From a virus, in the IMG/VR virus record IMGVR_UViG_3300005805_000049, positions 32,001-96,000 of that record: a stretch of 64,000 nt of DNA. One strand, 5' to 3'. The position numbers and the translations under genes were made by a program. Within the stretch, counting starts at the first letter, position 1. The number at the start of each line of letters is the position of its first letter. The notes below the pieces were generated by a model. That model was given only the letters and a program-made list of their open reading frames with translations, was not told the DNA's origin and did no database searches. Positions 30,173 to 55,566 of the stretch are shown here, one piece after another.

Positions 30173-30201
30173 TTGACAATTCTCTTTCCTGCAATTACAA
30201 T
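30173..30201 (+). promoter_or_regulatory. Promoter TTGACA-17-TACAAT for the DNA polymerase
   Basis: Near-perfect sigma70 consensus. Confidence 0.8.
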
Positions 30202-30235
30202 CTCTAACATTGAAGCAACTGATGAGGCGATCTCT

Positions 30236-32731
30236 ATGCATTTTTATACCAGCGCCACACAGCGAGGGAACAACATTCTTGTCTGTGGATACAATGATGG
30301 AAAGCGATATAAACAAAAGGTTCGTTACAAGCCATATCTATTCGTTCCAACAAACCAGTACAGTAAATACAAAACGATTGGCGGCAAGTCTGTCGGACGG
30401 ATGGACTTTGATTCAATTGCTGACGCTCGTAACTTCGTTGAGCAATACAAAGAAGTTGATAACTTTGAAGTGTATGGGTCGACCAACTATCAATATGTCT
30501 ATCTACACGACACTTTTAAACAAACTAAGTATGACTCTCGTCTGATTAAGACTGTAGTGTTGGACATCGAAGTTTCTACTGAGGATGGGTATCCAGACAT
30601 CCAGACTGCTCAATCTGCAATTACTGCAATCACCATGATGTATGACGATATTACTTTTGTGCTTGGCTATGGAGAATTTAACACTTCTGATACGACGATC
30701 AAGTACATCAAATGTGCTGATGAGCAAGAGTTATTGAATCGATTTATTAAGCTATTTTCCCATGATGTGTATCGACCTGACGTGATTACAGGATGGAACG
30801 TTGAAATGTTTGATATTCCATACTGCGTCAATCGGATCACTAATGTGTTAGGAGAAGCTTATGCAAAAAAGCTTTCTCCTTTTGAAGTATTGGACCAACG
30901 AACGATTGAGTATATGGGGCACGAGAATGTTGCTTTCACTCCTGTTGGTGTGAACATTCTTGATTATTTGCATCTGTACAAAAAGTTTACTTATTCGCAA
31001 CAAGAGTCTTATAAGCTAGACCATATTGCGTTCGTTGAACTTGGAGAACGTAAACTGGACTACTCTGAGTATGGATCATTGCATAACTTATACGTCAATG
31101 ACCATCAGAAGTTTATTGAGTATAACATTCGAGATTGTGGTCTAGTTCGCCGTCTGGATAATAAGATGAAGCTGTTGGATTTGGTCTACACGATTGCTTA
31201 CGATTCAACTACCAACTATATCGATTCATTGGCAACGGTTCGATCATGGGATGTTGTAATTCACAACTACCTCATTGACCAGAACATCGTTGTTCCAAAC
31301 CCAAAGAAGTCAGAAGTTAATAGACAACCTGTTGGAGCCCACGTTAAGAATCCTCAGACCGGGGCATTTGATTGGGTGGTGTCGTTCGATTTGACAAGTT
31401 TGTATCCTCACTTAATCATGTCATACAACATTTCGCCAGATACTATTCGGGGTAAAGTTCCAAATCAATTGTCAATCGATCAATTATTGGACGGCAAATC
31501 TGATATCTATCATAAGTATCTTGATGTTAATAACTATTCAATGGCTGCAAGTGGATGTGTATTTACCAAAGATAAACAAGGTTTCTTACCAGCATTGATG
31601 AAACAATTGTTTGACAAACGTAAACAATTTAAAGATGAGATGCTCAAGCTGAAGAAGCAGTATGAGAAAAACAAGACTACAGAGCTTGAGTACCTGATTG
31701 CAAAATACGACAATCTTCAGATGGCAATGAAGATTCGATTGAACTCTGCGTACGGAGCGCTTGCGAATCCGTACTTCAGGTGGTTTGATCTTCGCTATGC
31801 GGAATCGATTACAATGTCTGGGCAGCTAACGATTCGATGGGCTGAAAAGCATATTAATCAGTGGATGAACGATAAGCTCGGGACTACCGATGTTGACTAT
31901 GTAATTGCATCTGATACTGATTCGTTGTATATCAACATGGGTGATTTGGTTAAACAGCTACATCCAAACAAAGATAAATTGTCGACCGTTCAGTTTATCG
32001 ATCAACTATGTGAACAACAAATTCAGCCATTCCTCAACCAGATTTACCAACAACTGTCAGACTCGATGAGATGTTATTGGCAAGGAATGCATATGAAGCG
32101 AGAAGGGATCTCTGACCGTGGAATATTTGTTGCAAAGAAACGATACATTCTCAATGTGTACAATAACGAGGGCGTTCAGTTCGAAACGCCGAAGCTGAAA
32201 GTGATGGGCATTGAGGCAGTTCGTTCGTCTACACCAGCATGTTGCCGGCAATCGCTGAAAGATGCGTTGAAAGTTATTCTACAAGGAACTGAGCAGCAAA
32301 CGGTCGACTTCATTGAGCAGTTCAGACAACAGTTCAACAAGCTACCTTTCGAAGAAGTTGCGTTTCCTAGAGGAGTAAATGGGCTTGACAAATACCACGA
32401 TTCAGGTACAATATACAAGAAAGCAACGCCGATCCATGTGCGTGGAGCGTTGTTGTTCAATCACAAATTGAAGCAAATGCGTTTGAACACGAAGTATCAG
32501 CAGATCTTCGACAAAGAGAAGATCAAGTTCTGCTACTTGAAGATGCCAAACCCTTTGCGAGAGAATGTGATATCTTCGCCGGGCAAACTTCCAACTGAAT
32601 TCGGTCTCGACAAGTACATTGATTATGAGGCACAGTTTAACAAAGCATTCATTGAACCGATCAAGACGATTCTTGATGCTATTGGTTGGAAAGTAGAACA
32701 GACTAACACCGTTTCGTTATTCTTCAGATAA
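30236..32731 (+). CDS. gp43: Family B DNA polymerase
   Basis: DIE exonuclease motif, GWNVE.FD, SFDLTSLYP, K..LNSAYG, SDTDS, KKRY; ATG 30236 follows GAGG. Confidence 0.98.
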   Translation: MHFYTSATQRGNNILVCGYNDGKRYKQKVRYKPYLFVPTNQYSKYKTIGGKSVGRMDFDSIADARNFVEQYKEVDNFEVYGSTNYQYVYLHDTFKQTKYDSRLIKTVVLDIEVSTEDGYPDIQTAQSAITAITMMYDDITFVLGYGEFNTSDTTIKYIKCADEQELLNRFIKLFSHDVYRPDVITGWNVEMFDIPYCVNRITNVLGEAYAKKLSPFEVLDQRTIEYMGHENVAFTPVGVNILDYLHLYKKFTYSQQESYKLDHIAFVELGERKLDYSEYGSLHNLYVNDHQKFIEYNIRDCGLVRRLDNKMKLLDLVYTIAYDSTTNYIDSLATVRSWDVVIHNYLIDQNIVVPNPKKSEVNRQPVGAHVKNPQTGAFDWVVSFDLTSLYPHLIMSYNISPDTIRGKVPNQLSIDQLLDGKSDIYHKYLDVNNYSMAASGCVFTKDKQGFLPALMKQLFDKRKQFKDEMLKLKKQYEKNKTTELEYLIAKYDNLQMAMKIRLNSAYGALANPYFRWFDLRYAESITMSGQLTIRWAEKHINQWMNDKLGTTDVDYVIASDTDSLYINMGDLVKQLHPNKDKLSTVQFIDQLCEQQIQPFLNQIYQQLSDSMRCYWQGMHMKREGISDRGIFVAKKRYILNVYNNEGVQFETPKLKVMGIEAVRSSTPACCRQSLKDALKVILQGTEQQTVDFIEQFRQQFNKLPFEEVAFPRGVNGLDKYHDSGTIYKKATPIHVRGALLFNHKLKQMRLNTKYQQIFDKEKIKFCYLKMPNPLRENVISSPGKLPTEFGLDKYIDYEAQFNKAFIEPIKTILDAIGWKVEQTNTVSLFFR

Positions 32732-32738
32732 AGGACAA

Positions 32739-33800
32739 ATGTTAATGAGCTTAAAAGACAAACTACTGAAAAACTCAACAATCAAAGAGACTGCTGTGTT
32801 ATCGCAGTCTAAATTGTTTACTAAAAAGGACATGATTCCTACATCAATTCCAATGATCAACGTTGCGTTTTCTGGATCGATTGATGGGGGATTCACGCCT
32901 GGGTTAACCACCTTAGCGGGTCCTTCAAAGCACTTTAAGACGGGATTCACTCTTCTTTTGGTTAAGTCGTTTTTGACCAAGTATCCTGACGGCATTGTAC
33001 TGTTCTATGATTCAGAATTTGGTACTCCTCAGCAGTACTTCCAGTCATTCAATATCAATGTCGACAATGTCATTCACACTCCAATCGTTGACGTTGAGCA
33101 ATTGAAATTCGATGTAATGAAGCAGCTGCAAGAACTAGACCGAGAAGACAATGTAATGATTGTCATTGACTCAATCGGCAATCTTGCATCGAAGAAAGAA
33201 GTTGAGGACACTCTGAACGAGAAGTCTGTTGCAGATATGTCTCGAGCGAAGCAATTGAAGTCGTTGTTTCGGATGGTTACCCCTCATCTAACATTAAAAA
33301 ACATTCCGATGGTTGTCGTTAACCACACGTACAAAGAGCTATCGATGTTTCCAAAAGATATCGTTTCTGGGGGCACAGGAAGTTATTATTCTTCAGATAC
33401 TATTTGGATTCTCGGAAGACAGCAGGATAAAGACGGTAAGGAAATTCAAGGGTACCACTTTATTATCAACGTTGAAAAATCTCGCTACGTCAAAGAAAAG
33501 TCCAAGATTCCAATCTCAATTTCATGGCAAGGAGGAATCAACAAATGGTCTGGTCTACTAGAACTTGCTCTGGAGCACAAGTCTGTTGTAAAGACTAAGC
33601 CAGGCTGGTACGCTGCATGTGATAAGGATGGAGTAGTTGTTTCTGATAGTTATCGAGAAATTGACGTGATTAACAATAAGCAATTTTGGATCGACCGATT
33701 AAAGAACACCGATCTCGCTGAGTTTATCAAGCAAAAATATCAAGCATCGCATCAAGGAGGAATGTTAGACGATAACGAAGAGGGCACAGATGAAGTATAA
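32739..33800 (+). CDS. uvsX: RecA-like recombinase
   Basis: GPSKHFKT, YDSEFG, DSIGNLAS, SGGTG. Confidence 0.96.
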   Translation: MLMSLKDKLLKNSTIKETAVLSQSKLFTKKDMIPTSIPMINVAFSGSIDGGFTPGLTTLAGPSKHFKTGFTLLLVKSFLTKYPDGIVLFYDSEFGTPQQYFQSFNINVDNVIHTPIVDVEQLKFDVMKQLQELDREDNVMIVIDSIGNLASKKEVEDTLNEKSVADMSRAKQLKSLFRMVTPHLTLKNIPMVVVNHTYKELSMFPKDIVSGGTGSYYSSDTIWILGRQQDKDGKEIQGYHFIINVEKSRYVKEKSKIPISISWQGGINKWSGLLELALEHKSVVKTKPGWYAACDKDGVVVSDSYREIDVINNKQFWIDRLKNTDLAEFIKQKYQASHQGGMLDDNEEGTDEV

Positions 33801-34026
33801 TATTGTGATTAAAGAGAATGATGACATTGAACTCCAAGAAACTACTTGTCGCAAACCGCTTGGTTGTCAGTGTATCATTGATAGTTCTGATCCATGTGGC
33901 TATGATAGATATATGATTCAGCAAAAGGTAATTGAGTATTATAAGCATAGAGCTAAGTCGATTGCTGATATGACCAACGAACAATTCCTACAGTGCTATG
34001 GATTTTATTATGATAAGGGAGAATAA
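33790..34026 (+). CDS. Hypothetical protein
   Basis: Translationally coupled between uvsX and gp41. Confidence 0.6.
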   Translation: MKYNIVIKENDDIELQETTCRKPLGCQCIIDSSDPCGYDRYMIQQKVIEYYKHRAKSIADMTNEQFLQCYGFYYDKGE

Positions 34027-35414
34027 TGGAACACACGATACTTGCTAACCTAATTGACAATGAACCTTATGGCAGGAAGGTGATTGCATTTCTAAAGGAT
34101 GAGTATTTTCACGATCAGGCAGACAGGCAACTGTTTTGCCTGATCGACAGCCACCTAAAGAAGTACAACACGTTCCCAACAAAGGAAATTTTGTACATCG
34201 ACCTTCAAAACGTCGACAATTTATCTGAGCAGCAATACTCTCAGACGAAGAACCTGATTGCAGGGTTATCCACTGATAAAACCACTGATGTAAATTGGTT
34301 GATCGACAAGACCGAACAATTTTGTCAGGATAAAGCAGTATATAATGCTATCAGACAATCTATCAAGATTATCGATGATGACAGCCAGTTAACGAAGGCA
34401 GCAATTCCAAAGATTCTTCAGGATGCATTGCAAGTCAGTTTTGATAGTAATATCGGCCATAGTTTCCTTGATGATGCAGATGATCGATATGATAGTTACC
34501 ACACCAAAGAGAAACGAATCGACTTTAACATCGAGTATCTGAACAAAATTACCCAAGGAGGGTTGCCTCAAAAGACTTTAAACTGCCTTCTGGCTGGTAC
34601 GGGTGTAGGAAAAAGTCTCGCGATGTGCCATATGGCATCTCATAACTTATTGTGCAATAGAAACGTTTTGTACATCACTCTTGAAATGGCTGAAGAACGA
34701 ATTGCACAGCGAATTGATGCTAACTTGCTAGATGTTACAATCTCCGAATTAATCGCTTTATCTAAAGTAGATTATCTAAAGAAAGTTGACAGACTAAAAC
34801 AAACAACACGAGGAAAACTGATCATCAAGGAGTATCCAACTGCATCTGCTGGGTCAGCTCACTTTCGACATTTGCTCAATGAACTACGAATAAAAAAGAA
34901 CTTCGTTCCTGATATCATCTACATCGATTACCTTAACCTTTGCGTCTCTGCTAGGATTAAAAATGGCGCTCAGGCAAATACATATACGTATATTAAATCG
35001 ATTGCAGAGGAATTAAGAGGGCTTGCTGTAGAATTCAATTTACCTATTGTTACCGCAACGCAGGCAAATAGATCTGCACTAAATTCTTCTGATATGGGAT
35101 TGGAAAACACATCAGATTCAATCGGTCTTCCAATGACAGTTGATTTCATGATTGCAATGATTTCAACTGAAGAATTGGATCAATTGGGCCAGATCATGTT
35201 TAAGCAATTGAAGAACAGGTACGGAGATCCTTCTCTATACAAACGTTTTGTTGTTGGAGTTGACAAGTCGAAAATGAGATTATATGATGTTGATGCTTCC
35301 CAACAAGAAGAAATTGATGAAGGGCCTGTGATGGACAGTGGACATTTCATGGAAGAAGAAACGGAACGAGGTAAAAAGGTATTCGATCGTTCAAAGTTTA
35401 GAGGATTTAATTGA
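34026..35414 (+). CDS. gp41: Replicative helicase (DnaB-like)
   Basis: AGTGVGKS, LEMAEE, IKEYPT, IDYL, ATQ.NR. Confidence 0.97.
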   Translation: MEHTILANLIDNEPYGRKVIAFLKDEYFHDQADRQLFCLIDSHLKKYNTFPTKEILYIDLQNVDNLSEQQYSQTKNLIAGLSTDKTTDVNWLIDKTEQFCQDKAVYNAIRQSIKIIDDDSQLTKAAIPKILQDALQVSFDSNIGHSFLDDADDRYDSYHTKEKRIDFNIEYLNKITQGGLPQKTLNCLLAGTGVGKSLAMCHMASHNLLCNRNVLYITLEMAEERIAQRIDANLLDVTISELIALSKVDYLKKVDRLKQTTRGKLIIKEYPTASAGSAHFRHLLNELRIKKNFVPDIIYIDYLNLCVSARIKNGAQANTYTYIKSIAEELRGLAVEFNLPIVTATQANRSALNSSDMGLENTSDSIGLPMTVDFMIAMISTEELDQLGQIMFKQLKNRYGDPSLYKRFVVGVDKSKMRLYDVDASQQEEIDEGPVMDSGHFMEEETERGKKVFDRSKFRGFN

Positions 35415-35629
35415 TGGTCAACGGAAAAATTACTACCATTAACAGAAGGTTAATTCATCTTCAACAGTTGCATCAAACTGTTGATTTTGTGCTAGAAAGT
35501 GAGTACTTTGACAGCGATGAAAGGATGGAGCTTGTTGATGGTCTGAAGAAAGAAATCACAACTGCATTGAATTCTATCGTTCACGATCTTAACACAGCGA
35601 GGAAATTGAATGAAGTATCAAGTGGTTAA
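35414..35629 (+). CDS. Hypothetical protein
   Basis: Start overlaps the gp41 stop. Confidence 0.6.
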   Translation: MVNGKITTINRRLIHLQQLHQTVDFVLESEYFDSDERMELVDGLKKEITTALNSIVHDLNTARKLNEVSSG

Positions 35630-35801
35630 GCACTCTAACCGATATAACGTGATTGAAGTTGCAACCGGTCATCTGATTCGTCAGTTTGACCGATCATACC
35701 AGGCATACCATCATGTCAATCACTTGAACTCAGTTTCAGTAGGTTTTGATGGATGGACGCCAGAATTCTTCCTCAAAAATCGAGGTATTATAAATAGCTA
35801 A
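35610..35801 (+). CDS. Conserved small T4-like protein
   Basis: LN...GFDGWTPEFFL motif commonly found after gp41. Confidence 0.65.
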   Translation: MKYQVVKHSNRYNVIEVATGHLIRQFDRSYQAYHHVNHLNSVSVGFDGWTPEFFLKNRGIINS

Positions 35802-35920
35802 GCTAAATCGTGTCTATAGCTCAAGCTATAAGAGGCAAGTGGATTATTAGACTAAATCCCAAGGAAGTGACGAGGTCAGAGGTGGGGTTCCTCTCGTCCG
35901 CGATTTTCTGCAAGCATTAG
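35798..35920 (+). ncRNA. Candidate late structured RNA (multi-branch junction, about 120 nt)
   Basis: TATAAATA 35789-35796; closing stem AAATCGTG/CGCGATTT with three internal hairpins; terminator follows. Confidence 0.65.
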
Positions 35921-35954
35921 AAACAGAGAGAGGTGGCAGCCTCTCTGTTTTTTT
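35921..35954. terminator. Intrinsic terminator between convergent units
   Basis: AAACAGAGAG-loop-CTCTCTGTTT plus T-tract. Confidence 0.85.
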
Positions 35955-36558
35955 AGTTGTACCATTTAGAGTATGGCTTAATTAACGGTGGCTTTCCATT
36001 ATCGCCAACACCAGAATCGATTGCAAAAAGCACGCCAGTCTGGCGATCTTTAATTACTGCAGCATAATGAGTCCACTTGAACAATCCGCCTTTCCAGTTT
36101 GGTGCCATGATATCATGAAACTTTAATGCGCCAATTTTATTCAGAATAATTAGATAAGAAGTGGAATTGGTTGCTTCATCTACACAATCCATTTGTGAAG
36201 GATCACCAGCTCCAAACGCGCCAAGCGACGCTCTATCTTTATCCGTACCAGTTGCTGTGCCAACATTCTGCTCAATTACTGCAATTGCTTTGCGAAGAGC
36301 AGCTCTTTCTTGTTCGGCATCATTGACGCTAACGAACATCGCCTTTAACTGTTCAATGAATTTGAAATCAAACGTAAATTCGTGAATTGTTGAACAGCCA
36401 TGACCCGAACACACATACACCGTTCGACCAGTTGGATACTGAGCTTTATTGTACTTAGAAATATGGGATTTGATATTGTCGGTATCGACTTTAACTGCAG
36501 CGGTTGCAGGCGTGAATAAAAATGGAATGGCTAGTAACGCAAGTTTGGCAGATTTCAT
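35953..36558 (-). CDS. Secreted transglutaminase/papain-like cysteine protease
   Basis: Signal peptide MKSAKLALLAIPFLFTPATAA; MDCVDE, HYAAVI and AIDS give a putative Cys-His-Asp triad; GGAG RBS. Confidence 0.65.
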   Translation of the reverse strand: MKSAKLALLAIPFLFTPATAAVKVDTDNIKSHISKYNKAQYPTGRTVYVCSGHGCSTIHEFTFDFKFIEQLKAMFVSVNDAEQERAALRKAIAVIEQNVGTATGTDKDRASLGAFGAGDPSQMDCVDEATNSTSYLIILNKIGALKFHDIMAPNWKGGLFKWTHYAAVIKDRQTGVLFAIDSGVGDNGKPPLIKPYSKWYN

Positions 36559-36590
36559 ATAAGTCTCCATCGTGTTTGTTGTCTTGATGG

Positions 36591-36641
36591 TATTTATAAA
36601 GATAGAGTTTTCAACAACTGCGTATAGTTTTATTATAAATA
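36591..36641. promoter_or_regulatory. Divergent late promoters (TATAAATA on - at 36591-36598 and on + at 36634-36641)
   Basis: Both are exact consensus matches in a divergent intergenic region. Confidence 0.8.
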
Positions 36642-36674
36642 CATAGAAACTCAATTTCATTTCAGGAAAAAATA

Positions 36675-37907
36675 ATGCTAACCTTTCATCAGTTCTTGAT
36701 AGAATCAGTAAAAAGAGCAGAGTCTGCAGCTCTAGTTAACACCCGGGGATTTATTAGCGAGTATGCGCTTAAACATAGTTTGGATCACTATCACAACAAA
36801 AGACGTGAAGGAATGGATCACGAAGAAGCCCTGAAAAGTGTGGCTCGCAGCCGCAACAAAATAACGAAACAGACCGCCAACGTGCCAGAAGTGCAACAAA
36901 TTTCTCATCAAATTTCTCCAGCAGAATTCAACAAAACGGTTGAGGATACTCACGACCATGCCTTGCATTTAATTCAACATTTGCATGACAATGAAGGAGG
37001 AATATCAGGTCCAAGCGTTGCCACTGGAGGAATGCAATCACAAACCATCAAAGCGCATTTTGGCCAAGAAACCGCTGCTGACGTGTTAGTTCCAGTAAAC
37101 AAAGGTCCGCATACTCATGTTGGAGTCAGTTTAAAATACTCGACGTCCTCAAAACCAGCTATTATTAAAGTTAATACACCAGGGGCTGGGATAGTTCACG
37201 AGCACCTTCAAGATCTACATCAAAAAGTATTTGGCAAGCGCAACGCCGAACTGCAATCGGCATGGGAAAGTTTTTCGCCTAAATTAAAAGGGTCCGTTGC
37301 CGACCCGAAATCCTCCAAATTCATTGAGCATCTAAAAGGTGTGTGGAAGACTACTCAATCTACAACAAAAGTTCCTCCCGTTCGCAGTTTGTTGCGAAAA
37401 GCAAGTAGAGGACAGTTAGGGGATCAATATAAATTTGACTACACCAAGCCGGACCAAAAGGCTGCTACTAAATTTGGAGAACAGGCCCGACAAGCATATA
37501 ATCAAGCTTATTCTGTTAAAAGCGACAAAGATTTTGTGGCGTATTCTGGGTTGGCTGAGCAACATTTACAGAAAGTATTTGACCGTGTAGCTAAAAGCAA
37601 TAATCCAGCCCACGTTCAGGCAGTTCACGACTTCATTCATAAAATTACAAACACTCACCCTGAAGAACCTAAAATAAAAACTGTGTTGATGTCAATCCAC
37701 AGAGATGCTATTCCTCAAGCACCAGTTCACACCGGTTCCGCAATTGCATCGAAACTGCGCGAAGCAGGCAATAAGTTTTCAGTATCTCGTAAGTCCCATT
37801 CCACTACAATCAATGTTGCTGGAATGAAGATAACCTGGGCTCGAAACGATCCTGCTCGAGGTAACCCAGTAAATATCTCATATTCTCACCTTAAAGGAAA
37901 TAATTGA
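36675..37907 (+). CDS. Putative head-internal restriction-endonuclease-like protein
   Basis: MLTFHQFLIE N-terminus; G..SE helix, ADVLV, VGVSLK motif. Confidence 0.5.
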   Translation: MLTFHQFLIESVKRAESAALVNTRGFISEYALKHSLDHYHNKRREGMDHEEALKSVARSRNKITKQTANVPEVQQISHQISPAEFNKTVEDTHDHALHLIQHLHDNEGGISGPSVATGGMQSQTIKAHFGQETAADVLVPVNKGPHTHVGVSLKYSTSSKPAIIKVNTPGAGIVHEHLQDLHQKVFGKRNAELQSAWESFSPKLKGSVADPKSSKFIEHLKGVWKTTQSTTKVPPVRSLLRKASRGQLGDQYKFDYTKPDQKAATKFGEQARQAYNQAYSVKSDKDFVAYSGLAEQHLQKVFDRVAKSNNPAHVQAVHDFIHKITNTHPEEPKIKTVLMSIHRDAIPQAPVHTGSAIASKLREAGNKFSVSRKSHSTTINVAGMKITWARNDPARGNPVNISYSHLKGNN

Positions 37908-39031
37908 TGCTTCGGTTCTCTCAGTTCATTCAAGAACAGTTGATTGTAGAAGGCGGAGGGCTTGGAATCTTTAAGCCTCAGCAAGGAAAGATTGTCGCTC
38001 ACTCGATGCCTAAAAAAGATGAAAGAGAAGGTAATCTTAGCAGTGAACCTTTACCTCTTGAGCACAAGGAAGACATCCATCACGCTCTTGCATCGGTAGC
38101 ACAGATATTTAAAAAACACACTGGCGATCATTTGTTTGGCAATAAGGACCAATCTCTACACAACCACCAAGCATATGCGGGATCAACTCGCCATGTAATG
38201 GGTACCGACCCAAAAACAGTTCGCCATTGGTTCGGTCTTCAAGGAAAGAAAGGACCGAGTGCTGAAAGCATCGGAGATTTCGATGTTCATGGAAACACTT
38301 CTGTGATTGCCAAACACGGGTTAGACAATATATTTGACACTAACCAGAAGTTGGGTAAAGGAAATGTTCGAATGGTTGGAATGATCAAAGCTGGATCGGG
38401 CCATCATTTATTGTTCGAGCACACTGATCATACAGGTCAAAAAAGACACGTTCAAGTAGACTTACTGCACACCAAATACGATGGAAATGCTCCAAATAAA
38501 GACCGAGCAATTGGAACTGGATCAGAAGTCGATGATCTCAAACAAGGAATTAAAGGAGTTTCTCGACAAGAACTAGCCAGTGCTATGGTAAAGGTTGTTG
38601 GAGGCAAAGCTGAAGGTAAAAGGTTTGTTAGTGAAAAAACAGGTAAGCCTGTAAAACTTTCAGACAGAGACCAGTATAATTATCGTATGGGATCTGAATC
38701 TAACAAGGTCAGAGCTGGCATATTACCTCATCCGGGAGGTCAACCAAATGATGTTCATGTTACTTCATATGATCACGTTCGGTCTGGTCAAGTAAAGGAA
38801 GAAGCTTTACACGACTTCATTAATAGGCATTTTGGGACGAAATATAAGCACGAAGACGTTGCGTCGTTTACTGGACTTGCAAAGATAGCAAAAAAACATA
38901 TGAAACCACAAGATCATAAGAGCTTAACCAAAATGTGGTATGATAAAATCATACAGCAACATCCTGGCGATGATGGAAAAGGTGCGCAGCATGTATTGAA
39001 TGCAAAACGAGTGCTAGAAGGAACAGCTTAA
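37907..39031 (+). CDS. Putative head-internal Pol-beta-superfamily nucleotidyltransferase
   Basis: MLRFSQFIQE; AGS, GDFD, VQVDL catalytic pattern. Confidence 0.65.
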   Translation: MLRFSQFIQEQLIVEGGGLGIFKPQQGKIVAHSMPKKDEREGNLSSEPLPLEHKEDIHHALASVAQIFKKHTGDHLFGNKDQSLHNHQAYAGSTRHVMGTDPKTVRHWFGLQGKKGPSAESIGDFDVHGNTSVIAKHGLDNIFDTNQKLGKGNVRMVGMIKAGSGHHLLFEHTDHTGQKRHVQVDLLHTKYDGNAPNKDRAIGTGSEVDDLKQGIKGVSRQELASAMVKVVGGKAEGKRFVSEKTGKPVKLSDRDQYNYRMGSESNKVRAGILPHPGGQPNDVHVTSYDHVRSGQVKEEALHDFINRHFGTKYKHEDVASFTGLAKIAKKHMKPQDHKSLTKMWYDKIIQQHPGDDGKGAQHVLNAKRVLEGTA

Positions 39032-40629
39032 TGAAAAGATTTGCTCAATTCATTCGAGAACAAGAAGAGAAGGTTCGTACCGCAGTATTACACGCAAATC
39101 CTTTCAAGCCAGACGGGTCAATGCGTTCTAACTCAATTGTTGCAAAGAAAACCACTGCACACAAAGACCTTTCAAATTTACTAGGAGACAGTGACCAACA
39201 TACAACATTCTCAGTACATGCAAAGTCCGATGGAATCCCTTCAGCAATTGGGCACGACGAGCATGGACCTTATATTGAAGTTGGTAAGCATGGCAAACTA
39301 AGATCTGCAGCAGACGTTAATGCCCTTCGTCCCGCAATGTTAGAAAAAGATAAGACTGGCGGGGCATTCACCGAACAAAGAATTGGTGGATTACATGAAG
39401 TCGTTGACCATTTCCTTACAAAGCCTCATCCACTAACTGAGATGGTTAATAAGCGCGGAACTGGTACTCGTCTGCATGGCGAGTTATTCTGGAATTCACT
39501 TGCCAAAGGCGAAACGCCTGATGAACCAGGCAGCCCCGGCGTTCGTACATATGTAATGACTCCTTACTCGAAAGAAAAGACTGCAGGGACAAAAGGCGGA
39601 TTTGCAGTATATTCAGGCCAGTTAAACAAAGGATTCTCTGAAAAAGAAATCAGCAAAATGCCTGAGCACTCCACCTCTGAAGTTAAGATTACACATGACA
39701 TCCTTCCAACTAAACACAGAGAGCTGTCTGTTCCAGCTGATGATTTGCGTAAACAACTGAAACAAACAGATCCGAAAGATCATCAAGCGATTGCTGAAAT
39801 TGCAGACCAGTTTCATAAGCGAGCGAGAGGACTACTAGAGAAATCTGGATATAAAGACCCATGGTCCCATCAGCATATCCAACCATGGGGAGAAGGTGTA
39901 GTGCTTCGTAAGAAAACGGATCCTCAAACTGCTATAAAGATTACATCACCAGAGCATCAACAGGGGATGTATGATCAGTTGTATAATAAACGAGTTGCAA
40001 CTGCTCGAAAGCAAAACCCTGAAATTGCCAATCAAGATGTTCACCATCATGTGACTATAGGAAGCATGTCTGTACCAACTGTCGGTCACGGAGGAATGGT
40101 CCGACATATGGTAAATGCTGCAAACAAGATTGGCAATGTTGGCAAAGTTGTTGTTGGAATGATGAGATCGTCAAAAACGTCTCCGTCTCCTCTATCTCAA
40201 GAAGAAAGAGAAATGATGCTTCGTCACACAGCCGGCAATCCTTCAAACGTTGAAGTTGCTCATGTAAGCGGAATTGGTGGGGCATTGCACCCAATTCTCA
40301 ACCATGTTTTAGAAAATGCAGGTCCAAAGCAGCATTTACACATTCACATTGGTCCAGACGATAAAGATAAAGCTGAAGACATCAAGAAGCAAGTTGAAAG
40401 CGGCAGCATGATGTTTCCTCGTGGCACTTTCCATTCGATAACAATTCATACAGCAGAATCTCGAGAACTGGTCGATGGAAAGAAAGTATCTGGTACCAGA
40501 GCTCGCGAAGCAATCGCCAGCAAAAATGAACCAGAAGCTGCTAAATTGATTGGAATGCAAAACCATCCAAAGTGGAAAACAATATGGAGCAAGCTATCTT
40601 CTGGCGGAATAAAGGTCAAAAGAGGGTAA
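39031..40629 (+). CDS. Putative head-internal fusion of an ATP-dependent ligase-like domain and a HIGH cytidylyltransferase-like domain
   Basis: MKRFAQFIRE; KSDG, LHGELF, GEGVV, IKI ligase motifs; PTVGH, PLS.EER, SGT.AR. Confidence 0.65.
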   Translation: MKRFAQFIREQEEKVRTAVLHANPFKPDGSMRSNSIVAKKTTAHKDLSNLLGDSDQHTTFSVHAKSDGIPSAIGHDEHGPYIEVGKHGKLRSAADVNALRPAMLEKDKTGGAFTEQRIGGLHEVVDHFLTKPHPLTEMVNKRGTGTRLHGELFWNSLAKGETPDEPGSPGVRTYVMTPYSKEKTAGTKGGFAVYSGQLNKGFSEKEISKMPEHSTSEVKITHDILPTKHRELSVPADDLRKQLKQTDPKDHQAIAEIADQFHKRARGLLEKSGYKDPWSHQHIQPWGEGVVLRKKTDPQTAIKITSPEHQQGMYDQLYNKRVATARKQNPEIANQDVHHHVTIGSMSVPTVGHGGMVRHMVNAANKIGNVGKVVVGMMRSSKTSPSPLSQEEREMMLRHTAGNPSNVEVAHVSGIGGALHPILNHVLENAGPKQHLHIHIGPDDKDKAEDIKKQVESGSMMFPRGTFHSITIHTAESRELVDGKKVSGTRAREAIASKNEPEAAKLIGMQNHPKWKTIWSKLSSGGIKVKRG

Positions 40630-40634
40630 ATTTA

Positions 40635-41072
40635 ATGTTATCATTTTCTCAGTTCATCGTTGAATCATCGAACTATAATAACCTAAGACGAGATGCTAAG
40701 AAAATGAGCATCGACGATTTCATGTCAAAGTATTCCGTGGAGGGGGAACATATCAAAAATCAACAACATTTAGCGCCCCATCACCATTTCGATATTAGTC
40801 AACTGGACCCGTCGGAACACGACTCGTGGGAACACCCCGACCTATCTGCTCGTGGAGAACAAACAGTGAAACAACACATTGAAACACTTAAATCTGGTGG
40901 TCATTTAACGCCTGTAATCGTTTCGGGAACGCCGGACAATAAGAAATACAGACCGATGGTGTGGGATGGGCATCACCGAACGATTGCTGCTTATAGAGCC
41001 GGTAACAAAACTATACCCGGATGGTTTGATGACAAGACTTTGAAACAAATTCACAAACAACAAAACGGGTAA
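40635..41072 (+). CDS. Putative head-internal ParB/Srx-like domain protein
   Basis: MLSFSQFIVE; PVIV..VWDGHHR..AA. Confidence 0.7.
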   Translation: MLSFSQFIVESSNYNNLRRDAKKMSIDDFMSKYSVEGEHIKNQQHLAPHHHFDISQLDPSEHDSWEHPDLSARGEQTVKQHIETLKSGGHLTPVIVSGTPDNKKYRPMVWDGHHRTIAAYRAGNKTIPGWFDDKTLKQIHKQQNG

Positions 41073-54673: not shown

Positions 54674-54750
54674 GGTCACGTAGCTCAGCTGGATAGAGCA
54701 TCTGCCTTCTAAGCAGATGGTCGCAGGTTCGAGTCCTGCCGTGATCGCCA
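54674..54750 (+). tRNA. tRNA-Arg(UCU)
   Basis: Cloverleaf, anticodon TCT 54708-54710, GTTCGAGTC, encoded CCA. Confidence 0.97.
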
Positions 54751-54770
54751 CTAACTTGAAAGGATATATA

Positions 54771-55070
54771 ATGATAGCTATTGATCTTCGAGACTCTATT
54801 GTATATGAACAATACTTAGAATCGATGAAACGGTTTGCTGATCTTCATATGTACGAGATGATGAGAATGGACCGTAACACAAGAATGCATTATTTATCTT
54901 CTGAAATTGAGAAACTTGTTTCGCCAGAGTTTATCAATGCGCATATTTGTAAGCGTGAGGAATTTCTAGATACAATGGACAGTGTTGTTGGGTCTCTTGA
55001 AGAAGATGTCCGTCAACATTTTACTGCAAAAGCAGAAGCGTTTATTAAAACTTATATAAACAGTAAGTGA
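54771..55070 (+). CDS. Hypothetical protein between tRNAs
   Basis: AAGGA RBS before ATG 54771. Confidence 0.65.
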   Translation: MIAIDLRDSIVYEQYLESMKRFADLHMYEMMRMDRNTRMHYLSSEIEKLVSPEFINAHICKREEFLDTMDSVVGSLEEDVRQHFTAKAEAFIKTYINSK

Positions 55071-55075
55071 TCTTT

Positions 55076-55150
55076 TCCAGCGTAGCTCAATGGTAGAGCA
55101 ACCGGCTGTTAACCGGTTGGTTGTAGGTTCGAGTCCTGCCGCTGGAGCCA
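55076..55150 (+). tRNA. tRNA-Asn(GUU)
   Basis: Cloverleaf ACCGG-CTGTTAA-CCGGT, encoded CCA. Confidence 0.97.
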
Positions 55151-55156
55151 AAGTTT

Positions 55157-55234
55157 CTGGGTGTAGCTCAATTTGCGTAGAGCGCTTGGTTTGGGACCAA
55201 GAGGCTGGAGGTTCGAATCCTCTCACCTAGACCA
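55157..55234 (+). tRNA. tRNA-Pro(UGG)
   Basis: CTTGG-TTTGGGA-CCAAG, GTTCGAATC, encoded CCA; D-loop has GCG rather than GG. Confidence 0.93.
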
Positions 55235-55238
55235 AAAT

Positions 55239-55313
55239 TGGGGATTAGTTTAATTGGCAGAACGCTGGACTTTGGATCCGGTAGTCTTGGTTCGAATCCA
55301 AGATCCCCAGCCA
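55239..55313 (+). tRNA. tRNA-Gln(UUG)
   Basis: U1-A72, CTGGA-CTTTGGA-TCCGG, encoded CCA. Confidence 0.95.
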
Positions 55314-55330
55314 AAAATTGGAGAAGTTTA

Positions 55331-55482
55331 ATGCATCTACTAATCGGCGTTATCATTCTATCCAACCTAATTCAAATTTGCATGGTGTTCCTATGAAATT
55401 CAACGAGCTAATTGTACTAAGAATTTTGATTGTAATGTTGACGATCTCTCTAATCCTTGATACAATCAGGTATCATCTATAA
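55331..55482 (+). CDS. Two overlapping TM micropeptides (55331-55396, 21 aa; 55393-55482, 29 aa)
   Basis: GGAG RBS, ATGA overlap, both hydrophobic. Confidence 0.5.
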
Positions 55483-55490
55483 TCAAAAAT

Positions 55491-55566
55491 AGACCTGTAG
55501 CATAATGGTGAATGCCAGTCGCTCATAACGGCTCAGATGGGGGTTCGAGTCCCTCCAGGTCTACCA
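55491..55566 (+). tRNA. tRNA with CAU anticodon (Ile2 or elongator Met)
   Basis: AGTCG-CTCATAA-CGGCT; paired 1-72 so not an initiator; C4-G69 and C5-G68 favour Ile2. Confidence 0.92.

What the first reader, a model, noticed from the sequence alone, without database searches (positions are those of the whole stretch)
35789..35954. Second stand-alone late RNA: compact multi-branch fold beside the injected-enzyme operon
Seen: TATAAATA (35789-35796) and a basal pairing CTAAGCT 35798-35804 / AGC-A-TTAG 35913-35920. The closing stem is AAATCGTG 35805-35812 / CGCGATTT 35899-35906. It encloses three hairpins: TATAGC-tcaa-GCTATA, GGATT..AATCC and GACGAG..AGG-tggggtt-CCT-CTCGTC, joined by purine-rich linkers (GGCAAG, AAGGAAG). 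Loop GGGGTT could alternatively pair with AATCCC. A terminator follows and no credible ORF is present. Inference: a ~120-nt structured RNA of unknown class (ribozyme, tRNA-like decoy, or partner/substrate of the neighbouring NTase and ligase).
Basis: partly seen in the sequence, partly recalled or inferred. Interest (0 to 1): 0.8.

Follow-up and report, generated by a model that had tools for sequence, protein, structure and literature searches.

The report
New late structured RNA, T4-like phages
Just after its DNA helicase gene, this uncultured T4-like phage carries a small gene, with its own late promoter and terminator, for a folded non-coding RNA that about a hundred related uncultured phages also keep, that matches no described RNA family, and whose job is still unknown.

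Summary
Window 35789-35954 is a self-contained unit: TATAAATA, a ~105-nt four-way-junction core and an intrinsic terminator.

It is a real RNA family. My covariance models match 129 loci (100 distinct cores) among the 201 sources scanned, all of them uncultured viral contigs. Pairing is kept by compensatory changes: 88.6-89.4% of cells are paired against 62-64% when shuffled, 0 of 500 shuffles reach the covariation score, and two helices are 100% paired. G-U pairs fix the strand.

- Invariant parts: G-GGCA, GGAA and the loop G-UGGGGUU-C.
- Promoter: 81 of 81 distinct members have TAAATA upstream, 63 of them the full TATAAATA. A terminator follows in 75 of 81.
- Position: always just 3' of gp41.
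- Databases: no match in Rfam, INPHARED, T4 or 185,579 cellular genomes.

Function is inferred only. I read it as a trans-acting late RNA that binds a partner through its invariant purine-rich core. This scan met the same family before on other genomes.

The parts
35789..35796 (+). T4-type late promoter box TATAAATA. It overlaps the last codons of the upstream 63-aa gene.
   Evidence: Read. Of 81 distinct family members, 63 have exact TATAAATA and the other 18 have TAAATA within 60 nt upstream. The box ends 2-12 nt before model position 1 in 58 of the 63.
35805..35812 (+). P1, 5' strand (AAATCGTG). It pairs with 35899-35906.
   Evidence: All 8 pairs show changes on both sides. 94.1% of cells are paired in A3 and 91.1% in A6.
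35815..35830 (+). P2 hairpin (TATAGC-tcaa-GCTATA). It sits 2 nt after P1.
   Evidence: All 6 pairs show changes on both sides. 93.0% and 88.1% of cells are paired. The loop sequence is not conserved.
35831..35840 (+). J2/3, a conserved purine-rich junction strand (AGAGGCAAGT). The family consensus is a-G-n-G-G-C-A-n-g.
   Evidence: G..GGCA is at least 97% conserved in 50 and 56 distinct rows. It is invariant in the 28-sequence MAFFT alignment.
35841..35859 (+). P3, a hairpin of variable length (GGATT-attagacta-AATCC).
   Evidence: The segment between the GGCA and GGAA motifs is 10-32 nt long. It folds into a hairpin of 2 or more pairs in 70 of 78 distinct cores, with mean z -2.5 against shuffles. 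In the model alignments only 50-61% of cells are paired because the register varies.
35860..35868 (+). J3/4, a conserved junction strand (CAAGGAAGT) with invariant GGAA.
35869..35898 (+). P4, made of:
- P4a: GACGAG with CTCGTC;
- a 5-nt 5' bulge;
- P4b: AGG with CCT;
- the invariant heptaloop TGGGGTT.
   Evidence: P4a and P4b are 100% paired in both sets. The two P4b pairs next to the invariant G-C loop-closing pair are paired in 99 of 99 distinct cores. Pair types: inner GC 85, AU 7, CG 6, UA 1; outer AU 46, CG 42, UA 9, GC 2. The loop UGGGGUU with its closing G-C never varies.
35899..35906 (+). P1, 3' strand (CGCGATTT). It directly abuts P4a.
35921..35954 (+). Intrinsic terminator: AAACAGAGAGAGG-tggc-AGCCTCTCTGTTT followed by a T-run. 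It is also scored on the minus strand, where the convergent 235-aa gene ends at 35953.
   Evidence: A hairpin plus a run of at least four U follows the core in 75 of 81 distinct members; the median distance from the core end to the U-run is 29 nt.
35610..35801 (+). Neighbour, not shown to be part of the RNA's function: a 63-aa protein of a conserved small family. The motif is LN-GGGFDGWTP-FF near the C-terminus.
   Evidence: A relative lies directly beside the RNA in 88 of 99 distinct loci, or 92 of 102 loci. There is no Pfam match. It gives weak hits to two PHROGs of unknown function, the better being phrog_29065 at E 5e-5.

Best explanation
This is a stand-alone RNA gene.

Shown:
- A late promoter box sits 8 nt before the closing helix, and a strong terminator begins about 15 nt after it.
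- Between them, about 105 nt fold into a four-way junction: P1, P2, a variable P3, and a bent P4.
- The paired positions drift by compensatory change, while about 20 unpaired nucleotides never change: G-GGCA in J2/3, GGAA in J3/4, and the loop G-UGGGGUU-C.
- The gene is single-copy.
- It has been inherited for a long time at one place, just 3' of the gp41 helicase gene, in a large clade of uncultured T4-like phages.

Inferred:
- The phage's late RNA polymerase makes a primary transcript of about 150 nt, from about 35802 to about 35954. Its 5' end lies at the foot of P1, and the terminator hairpin protects its 3' end.
- The RNA acts in trans late in infection.
- It works through its folded core. 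The two invariant purine-rich junction strands and the G-rich P4 loop probably pack into one tertiary pocket that binds a conserved partner. I think a protein is most likely (a small RNP, or a decoy for a host or phage factor) and a small ligand less likely.
- It probably does not work by long antisense pairing or as a cis riboswitch.
For: Transcription unit:
- Promoter and terminator are present in the window.
- Across the family, 81 of 81 distinct members have TAAATA upstream, 63 of them the full TATAAATA, and 75 of 81 have a terminator.

Structure:
- In A3 (37 distinct rows), 89.4% of cells are paired against 63.7% when shuffled. 25 of 28 pairs show double changes. The covariation score is 0.669 against 0.201, reached by 0 of 500 shuffles. 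Slid controls give 39-48% paired.
- A6 (56 distinct rows, seeded by a DNA pattern and not by gp41) gives 88.6% against 61.6%, and 0.751 against 0.231, with 0 of 500 shuffles.

Strand: many G-U pairs, for example GU in 18 and 12 rows in P1 and in 8 rows twice in P4a. These would be A-C mismatches on the other strand.

Not coding: each of the three frames is open in only 12-14 of 78 cores.

Not a cis switch:
- Duplex energy between the aptamer 3' part and the terminator 5' arm has mean z 0.01 over 74 members, and 1 of 74 is below -2.
- Downstream genes differ between loci, and are convergent in the window and at least 3 other loci.
- In one clade of 15 rows (SH-aLRT 99) the RNA alone is inverted in place.

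Not antisense to this phage: complements of the loop and of J2/3 are not enriched in the window. Counts are 5 against 4.2 expected, and 7 against 12 expected.

A core of invariant unpaired bases set in covarying helices is the pattern seen in RNAs that bind something. That last point is my inference from general knowledge of aptamers and RNP RNAs.

Single copy in the 126-kb record.
Against: - There is no expression data of any kind for this RNA.
- No partner has been identified.
- The only constant neighbour besides gp41, the small 63-aa-type protein, is not obligatory either way. 10 of 102 RNA loci lack it at E <= 1e-3 yet keep the invariant bases. One locus (L028) keeps the protein but has lost the RNA.
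- The protein's model gives no RNA-binding fold. Mean pLDDT is 79, the best structural match has Z 5.2, and Foldseek finds nothing at E <= 0.001.
- About 20 invariant bases would suit a ribozyme or a ligand aptamer as well as a protein site.
- In 30 of 79 loci, genes with T4-like capsid-targeting N-termini follow on the same strand, several starting 70-116 nt after the core. A leader role by read-through therefore cannot be excluded for those loci.
- Short seed pairing to host RNAs could not be tested, because the host is unknown.
Confidence: 0.55

Rival explanations
1. tRNA-like mimic or decoy. The RNA copies the cloverleaf layout: a closing helix, then a 2-nt linker starting with U, three arms, the last arm abutting the closing helix, and a 7-nt loop on that arm. 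It would be taken by a tRNA-handling enzyme or a tRNA-targeting host defence.
For: - Topology: P1 of 8 bp, a J1/2 of 2 nt whose first base is mostly U, three hairpins, and 0-1 nt between P4 and P1.
- L4 has 7 nt.
- The 11-mer GGUGGGGUUCC (the invariant loop and its closing G-C, with the commonest form of the next pair, held by 85 of 99 cores) equals the first 11 nt of E. coli tRNA-Tyr, as printed in the methods of PMC13416341 and a table of PMC7695249 (passages seen).
- The window carries five tRNA genes.
Against: - ARAGORN finds nothing here.
- The Rfam tRNA model does not match, even at E <= 10.
- The J2/3 and J3/4 linkers are 9-10 nt, where I recall a tRNA having 1 and 4-5 nt.
- The loop UGGGGUU does not fit the T-loop consensus as I recall it.
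- No CCA follows P1.
- The 11-mer match was found post hoc by a text search. In the tRNA those bases form the acceptor strand plus positions 8-11, not a hairpin loop. No other stretch is alike.
Confidence: 0.1
2. Cis-acting leader or attenuator of the late genes that follow, often genes with capsid-targeting-like N-termini. The late promoter would serve the operon, and the terminator would be read through under some condition sensed by the fold.
For: - The first ORF of 50 aa or more on the RNA's strand starts within about 250 nt of the core end in most non-inverted loci.
- CTS-like N-termini occur within 3 kb downstream in 30 of 79 distinct loci.
- The architecture of aptamer-like core followed by a terminator resembles terminating riboswitches.
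Against: - No conserved antiterminator: mean z 0.01, n = 74.
- The downstream genes are not one family. The largest downstream cluster covers 21 of 99 loci.
- In the window and L002 the next gene is convergent.
- In a 15-row clade the RNA points back towards gp41.
- The window's downstream operon starts about 720 nt away, beyond a minus-strand gene.
Confidence: 0.12
3. Base-pairing small RNA of the Hfq type. A short seed in J2/3 or in the G-rich loop would target host or phage mRNAs, and the junction would serve only as a scaffold.
For: - A strong terminator with a long U-tail, and an A/U-rich spacer before it in many members.
- Exposed conserved single strands.
Against: - Complements of the two conserved single strands are not enriched in the window.
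- In my experience base-pairing sRNAs seldom keep four covarying helices and 20 invariant bases at gp41 divergences down to about 55% identity.
- The conserved strands are purine-rich and would need an equally invariant pyrimidine target in unknown and probably diverse hosts.
Confidence: 0.1
4. Catalytic RNA: a new self-cleaving or otherwise reactive ribozyme.
For: A compact multi-helix junction with invariant unpaired purines.
Against: - No match to any ribozyme family of Rfam 15.
- It is single-copy and strictly syntenic. As I recall, known small self-cleavers tend to be scattered and often multi-copy.
- Nothing in the sequence points to a cleavage site.
Confidence: 0.06
5. Not an RNA at all: a DNA-level element such as an origin or a protein binding site, a chance fold, or merely the 3' end of the helicase operon.
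For: - Fixed position beside replication genes.
- The single-sequence folding z-score is only -1.8 on either strand.
Against: - Strand-specific G-U pairs and compensatory changes.
- Its own promoter box in 81 of 81 members and a terminator in 75 of 81.
- The unit keeps promoter and terminator when inverted.
Confidence: 0.02

Closest known systems
T4 rnaC and rnaD (species 1 and 2 small stable RNAs)
   Same: Small, ORF-free, structured RNAs of about 120-140 nt, encoded by a T4-type phage, with function still unknown. They are annotated in NC_000866.4 as misc_RNA.
   Different: - No homology: model R1 finds nothing in the whole T4 record at E <= 1.
- The T4 RNAs lie inside the tRNA cluster, and rnaC carries a tRNA-type T-arm sequence.
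- This RNA has its own late promoter and terminator, and sits beside gp41.
Four-way-junction riboswitch aptamers followed by a terminator (SAM-I type; the class name is recalled, not from a call)
   Same: About 100 nt. P1 closes a multi-helix junction. The invariant bases are concentrated in the junction strands and one loop. An intrinsic terminator follows a few nt after P1.
   Different: - No Rfam riboswitch model matches.
- No competing antiterminator.
- No conserved downstream gene, and convergent or inverted arrangements occur.
Orphan structured RNA candidates from comparative genomics of phages and metagenomes: Weinberg et al. 2010, PMC2864571 (search listing and abstract only), and Fremin et al. 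2023, PMC10690425 (abstract and passages)
   Same: Found only by conservation and covariation, in uncultured viral sequence, with no assigned function. 1,241 of the 8,495 IMG/VR candidates of Fremin et al. include a terminator.
   Different: - The motifs of the 2010 paper that entered Rfam do not match.
- The main text of the 2023 paper contains none of the words helicase, T4-like, Myoviridae or DnaB.
- Whether this RNA is one of its unnamed candidates cannot be told, because the supplementary tables are closed.
tRNA
   Same: Cloverleaf-like order of helices, a 2-nt linker after the closing helix, and a 7-nt loop on the last arm.
   Different: Not recognised by ARAGORN or the tRNA covariance model. 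It has long purine-rich linkers, no T-loop, no anticodon-type loop and no CCA.

Membership tests
Any Rfam 15 family (4227 models) | Covariance-model match at the family's gathering score | tested here: not met
   - The whole window gives only 5 tRNAs, all elsewhere.
- A permissive scan of 35500-36200 gives 3 hits with E 1.3-6.6 and 12-18 bits, against cut-offs of 49-55.
- 19 member loci give 0 hits.
tRNA / tRNA-like | Detection by tRNA finders | tested here: not met
   ARAGORN finds 0 genes in 35000-36500. No RF00005 match there.
tRNA / tRNA-like | Cloverleaf four-helix topology, with a 2-nt linker after the closing helix and none before its 3' strand | tested here: met
   Structure used for R1 and the consensus of A6 and A7.
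tRNA / tRNA-like | T-loop and 3' CCA | tested here: not met
   Read directly. The loop is UGGGGUU in all 99 cores, and TTTTCTG follows P1. The T-loop consensus itself is recalled.
Transcription-terminating riboswitch | Conserved aptamer directly followed by an intrinsic terminator | tested here: met
   A terminator is present in 75 of 81 members. The median gap from the core end to the stem start is 7 nt.
Transcription-terminating riboswitch | Mutually exclusive antiterminator pairing between the aptamer 3' part and the terminator 5' arm | tested here: not met
   Duplex energies against shuffled arms: mean z 0.01, median 0.03, and 1 of 74 below -2.
Transcription-terminating riboswitch | A consistent regulated gene downstream on the same strand | tested here: not met
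   - Downstream genes are heterogeneous.
- The next gene is convergent in the window.
- The RNA is inverted in a 15-row clade.
T4 rnaC / rnaD | Sequence and structure homology | tested here: not met
   R1 gives 0 matches at E <= 1 in NC_000866.4, all 168,903 bases.
Small self-cleaving ribozymes | Match to a known class | tested here: not met
   No Rfam match.
Small self-cleaving ribozymes | Site-specific self-cleavage | not testable with these tools
   Needs an in-vitro transcript.
T4-type late transcription unit | TATAAATA box shortly before the start, no -35 element needed | tested here: met
   Present at 35789-35796. Exact in 63 of 81 members, and TAAATA in the other 18. The spacing from the box to the start site is recalled knowledge about T4.
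csRNA catalogue of Fremin et al. 2023 | Listed among the 8,495 IMG/VR candidates | not testable with these tools
   The supplementary tables are closed. The main text has no mention of helicase or T4-like.

The most novel reading that the evidence does not exclude
The RNA is a free-standing aptamer: a riboswitch-like ligand- or protein-binding pocket with no expression platform. It would be made in bulk late in infection to soak up a small molecule or a host factor, as an RNA 'sponge' or decoy. A bolder variant: it is loaded into the head together with the capsid-targeted proteins encoded next to it in many members, and is delivered to the next cell with the DNA. The evidence excludes neither variant. 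There is an invariant purine pocket, no cis platform, and late timing. Capsid-targeting-type N-termini follow on the RNA's strand in 30 of 79 loci.
Probability: 0.1. Interest if true: 0.9.

Novelty: new variant of a known kind. Interest (0 to 1): 0.6.

Why it matters
T4-like phages are among the best-studied viruses. Yet apart from tRNAs and the unexplained rnaC and rnaD, I know of almost no stand-alone structured RNAs described for them.

This RNA has about 20 invariant bases. It has been kept at one genomic position while the neighbouring helicase diverged to about 55% identity. It is present in at least 100 distinct uncultured aquatic phage sequences. That degree of constraint implies a function that matters to the phage late in infection.

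The family is now defined well enough to test:
- a model and a consensus;
- transcript boundaries predicted to within a few bases;
- the list of bases to mutate.

If the partner turns out to be a host defence or translation factor, this would be a new RNA-based counter-measure. If it is a ligand, it would be a trans-acting natural aptamer.

Tried and rejected
**Riboswitch platform.** Rejected; there is no antiterminator signal.

**GGAA x UUCC pseudoknot or alternative helix.** I noticed this, and other first readers noted it too.
- Flanking positions do not extend it: 31% paired against 47% shuffled for the next pair, and 6% against 5% for the one after.
- When the base after UUC changes, it covaries with P4b and not with GGAA.
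- The 3-bp core joins invariant bases, so it cannot be tested by covariation.

Not conserved.

**Coding.** Rejected.

**Antisense targets in the phage.** Not enriched.

**Homology to T4 rnaC/rnaD, or presence in cultured relatives.**
- R1 finds nothing in the whole records of T4, Stenotrophomonas phage DLP6, Methylophilales phage Melnitz-3 and Synechococcus phage DSL-LC03.
- blastn of three members against INPHARED gave nothing except a 25-nt chance match at E = 1.

**Cellular genomes.**
- The strict pattern gives 0 hits in 185,579 species genomes. That pattern catches 21 of 37 gp41-seeded distinct members.
0 of those 120 pass R2.
- The looser scan is therefore incomplete, and divergent members could be missed.

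**Small upstream protein as partner.**
- The association is strong, but not obligatory in either direction.
- Its fold is uninformative.
- tblastn of a member against INPHARED found nothing.
- The search for related loci with the window's own 63-aa protein found no relative. That tool needs near-exact peptide words; the relatives came from profile searches of the loci.

**First alignment.** MAFFT plus RNAalifold on 28 sequences recovered only P4a. The 5' half needed a structure-aware alignment.

**Expression.** The look-up of sequencing runs, kind rna: no RNA holder was listed.

**Literature.**
- Searches found no description of this RNA. I also read passages of PMC3037559 and PMC10690425.
- Supplements, which may list it as an unnamed candidate, could not be seen.

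**Rows dropped.**
- L102 and L140: R1 hits at E 0.13 and 0.24, not at the pattern site.
- L059, cut at its 3' end, was dropped from the flank statistics.
- L104 was left out of both R2 calls by my slip and is counted on its R1 hit.
- The script printed 78 and 74 of 78 because the word 'window' sorted into the pattern-seeded group. The true figures are 77 of 120 and 73 of 77.
- In the tree, identical gp41 rows and hits shorter than 400 residues were dropped. 14 rows are of unknown RNA state.
Full report
**What is in the window.**
The window is bases 32001-96000 of a 126,217-base uncultured viral record estimated to be 74% complete. Around the finding the genes run as follows:
- DNA polymerase gp43, 30173-32731;
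- UvsX, 32739-33800;
- a 78-aa ORF;
- gp41 helicase, 34026-35414;
- a 72-aa ORF;
- a 63-aa ORF, 35610-35801.

The last ORF ends inside the box TATAAATA (35789-35796). A 151-nt gap without a credible ORF follows. It ends in a terminator whose T-run overlaps the stop codon of a convergent 235-aa gene at 35953-36660.

**Chance or not.**
The single sequence does not decide this.
- The MFE is -48.7 kcal/mol with z -1.82, and 12 of 200 shuffles fold as well.
- The reverse strand scores the same.

Comparative evidence decides it. I fetched 80 loci around relatives of gp41 from viral contigs. A plain nhmmer/blastn search then found the element downstream of gp41 in about 40 of them. The 11-mer GGTGGGGTTCC stands downstream of gp41 on the gp41 strand in 44 of the 80. 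The raw sequences already show the helices changing in step while GGCAAG, GGAA and GGTGGGGTTCC stay fixed.

MAFFT plus RNAalifold recovered only P4a. R1 matched the window and 51 of the 80 loci.

On that alignment (37 distinct rows):
- 89.4% of cells pair, against 63.7% when shuffled.
- 25 of 28 pairs carry changes on both sides.
- The covariation score is 0.669 against 0.201, reached by 0 of 500 shuffles.
- Sliding the partners by 1-3 columns drops pairing to 39-48%.

These counts lean towards the structure, because the alignment was fitted to it.

**An independent set.**
A family-wide model R2 matched 63 of 100 and 65 of 100 sources. With L104, an R1 hit that I left out of both R2 calls by a slip, the totals are (corrected as explained under Tried and rejected):
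- 129 loci including the window, with 100 distinct cores;
- 51 of 80 gp41-seeded loci;
- 77 of 120 pattern-seeded loci.

The alignment of matches in loci L105-L204, all pattern-seeded (56 distinct rows), gives 88.6% paired against 61.6%, and a score of 0.751 against 0.231, with 0 of 500 shuffles. P4a and P4b are 100% paired. Cores are 55-82% identical to the window's.

P3 is a hairpin of variable length and register (70 of 78 cores, mean z -2.5). This is why it scores only 50-61% in the model alignments.

The two P4b pairs next to the invariant G-C loop-closing pair are paired in 99 of 99 cores, each with four pair types.

**Anatomy and consensus.**
In order along the RNA:
1. P1, 8 bp.
2. A 2-nt linker, mostly starting with U.
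3. P2, 6 bp, with a free loop.
4. J2/3: a-G-n-G-G-C-A-n-g.
5. Variable P3.
6. J3/4: n-n-n-G-G-A-A-n-a.
7. P4a, 6 bp.
8. A 4-7-nt, mostly A-rich, 5' bulge. In some members a small extra hairpin sits here.
9. P4b, 3 bp.
10. Loop UGGGGUU.
11. 0-1 nt.
12. The P1 3' strand.

G-U pairs are frequent, so the folded strand is the one that the promoter reads.

**Transcription signals.**
- Among 81 distinct members with enough flank, 63 have exact TATAAATA and 18 have TAAATA within 60 nt upstream.
- The box ends 2-12 nt before model position 1 in 58 of the 63.
- 75 of 81 have a hairpin of -7 kcal/mol or better plus a run of at least four U within 90 nt. The six misses also show GC-rich hairpins, but their U-runs are interrupted, short or absent.
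- From what I recall of T4 late promoters, where the start lies about 6-7 nt after the box, the window's transcript should begin near 35802. That is at the foot of P1. It should end in the U-run at 35948-35954, giving about 150 nt.
- This is inference. No RNA data could be obtained.

**Genomic setting.**
The RNA always lies just 3' of gp41.
- 73 of the 77 pattern-seeded members have gp41 in the same locus, at a median gap of about 290 nt.
- Of the four exceptions, two are cut within about 400 nt of the RNA on the gp41 side, one about 1.1 kb from it, and the fourth (L116) has the RNA about 650 nt from the locus start.

On a gp41 tree of 95 rows (quick IQ-TREE, midpoint root for drawing only):
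- RNA-positive rows are spread over the whole tree.
- Absences are scattered, with at least 7 forced changes.
- The 15 rows with the RNA on the opposite strand form one clade (SH-aLRT 99).

This fits an old gene, one in-place inversion and several losses.

Cultured relatives reach at most 56.5% gp41 identity. The three that I checked whole, and T4, lack the RNA.

Downstream genes are heterogeneous. The window's 235-aa convergent gene is shared only with L002. Relatives of the 410-, 375- and 532-aa proteins occur in 0, 2 and 1 of the 49 RNA loci with at least 3 kb beyond the RNA.

**A new constant neighbour.**
The 63-aa ORF belongs to a family of about 56-90-aa proteins. The alignment of 44 sequences has invariant E16, F46, G48, P51 and F53, and the motif LN-GGGFDGWTP-FF.
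- Its gene ends at the RNA's promoter in 73 distinct loci. In 15 more it lies on the opposite strand, convergent with the RNA in 14 of them. That makes 88 of 99 distinct loci, or 92 of 102 loci.
- In the gp41-seeded set the table reads: RNA+ protein+ 51; RNA+ protein- 0; RNA- protein+ 7; RNA- protein- 22.
- Against a functional link: 10 RNA loci of the other set lack it, and L028 keeps it while a terminator replaces the RNA.
- It has no Pfam match, and only weak hits to two PHROGs of unknown function, the better being phrog_29065 at E 5e-5.
- It has no relative in INPHARED by tblastn.
- AlphaFold gives a three-stranded sheet plus a helix for residues 1-41 (block pLDDT 89-92), and a poorly defined conserved tail.
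- Fold searches give nothing above Z 5.2.

I record it as a lead, not as the partner.

**Hypotheses tested.**
- Riboswitch with terminator: no competing antiterminator. Mean z is 0.01 for n = 74, and the window itself is the single member below -2. There is no common downstream gene.
- Pseudoknot GGAA/UUCC: not extended by covariation, and the base after UUC follows P4b.
- Basal helix: mean z 0.0 for n = 91.
- Coding: no conserved open frame.
- Antisense to the phage: no enrichment.
- tRNA: not detected. The helix order is cloverleaf-like. The 11-mer GGUGGGGUUCC (the invariant loop and its closing G-C, with the commonest form of the next pair) equals the first 11 nt of E. coli tRNA-Tyr as printed in two papers. 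I found that match post hoc by text search and treat it as probably coincidental.
- rnaC/rnaD: no homology.
- Cellular genomes: none found, within the limits stated under Tried and rejected.

**Interpretation.**
What is shown is a stand-alone, single-copy, anciently conserved RNA gene with late-type signals and a four-way-junction core. Its unpaired purine-rich strands and G-rich loop are invariant.

How it works is inferred. I favour a trans-acting late RNA that binds a conserved partner through a tertiary pocket formed by J2/3, J3/4 and L4. A protein is the likeliest partner. The rivals are a tRNA-like decoy, a leader for the following late genes, a seed-pairing sRNA, and a ribozyme. None is excluded, and each has a simple experimental test.

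**Known or new.**
- It is not in Rfam 15.
- My four literature searches and two partial readings found no description.
- It may be an unnamed entry in the IMG/VR candidate list of PMC10690425, whose supplements I could not open.
- Within this scan the same family was met before on other genomes. First-reader notes share words with members L067 and L018. Six follow-up summaries describe a late structured RNA downstream of gp41 of unknown function, and a seventh was found by sequence. A further one, on a Y-shaped RNA of about 170 nt in the same position, may be related. I did not see their sequences.

My own additions are:
- the association with the small protein;
- the single-clade inversion;
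- the negative antiterminator, pseudoknot-flank, basal-helix, NTase/ligase-linkage and cellular-genome tests;
- the tRNA-Tyr 11-mer coincidence.

Noticed in passing
window 35610-35801 (+): A family of small proteins (about 56-90 aa) with a beta-beta-beta-alpha N-terminal part and the conserved tail LN-GGGFDGWTP-FF. Its gene lies between gp41 and the RNA in most members. It has no Pfam match, only weak hits to two PHROGs of unknown function, and no relative in cultured phages by tblastn. The aromatic tail near the C-terminus might be a docking peptide for another replication protein; that is my speculation only.
   Followed up: partly
window 36675-41072 (+); loci such as L016, L018, L020, L088, L092, L105: Genes following the RNA often begin with a T4-like capsid-targeting-type N-terminus of the form M-x-x-F-x-x-F/Y-I/L-x-E. 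A regular expression for this pattern matches an ORF within 3 kb downstream on the RNA strand in 30 of 79 distinct loci. The window's 410-aa and 375-aa proteins are among them. The proteins themselves are mostly unrelated.
   Followed up: partly
window 35953-36660 (-): A convergent 235-aa gene is wedged between the RNA and the downstream operon. Among the 128 other RNA loci, only L002 has a relative (85% identity over 209 residues). It shares the RNA's terminator, which scores on both strands.
   Followed up: partly
loci L074, L075, L087, L089, L096, L098, L109, L112, L121, L123, L134, L143, L146, L150, L152, L153, L156, L157, L161: In one gp41 clade (15 distinct rows, SH-aLRT 99) the RNA unit, with its promoter and terminator, is inverted in place. 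It is then convergent with the small protein gene.
   Followed up: yes
L028:1670-2000: A relative in which the small protein gene is followed directly by a terminator and then by a gene with a capsid-targeting-like start. The RNA has been lost cleanly.
   Followed up: partly
window 54674-55566 (+): A cluster of five tRNA genes: Arg-tct, Asn-gtt, Pro-tgg, Gln-ttg and Met-cat.
   Followed up: no
R1 and R2 do not match it, so it is not a second copy of this family. I did not examine it further.
   Followed up: no
window 35881-35891: The 11-mer GGTGGGGTTCC (the invariant loop and its closing G-C, with the commonest form of the next pair) is identical to the first 11 nt of E. coli tRNA-Tyr as printed in PMC13416341 and PMC7695249. 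It occurs once in the window, with 0.26 expected at up to 1 mismatch.
   Followed up: partly
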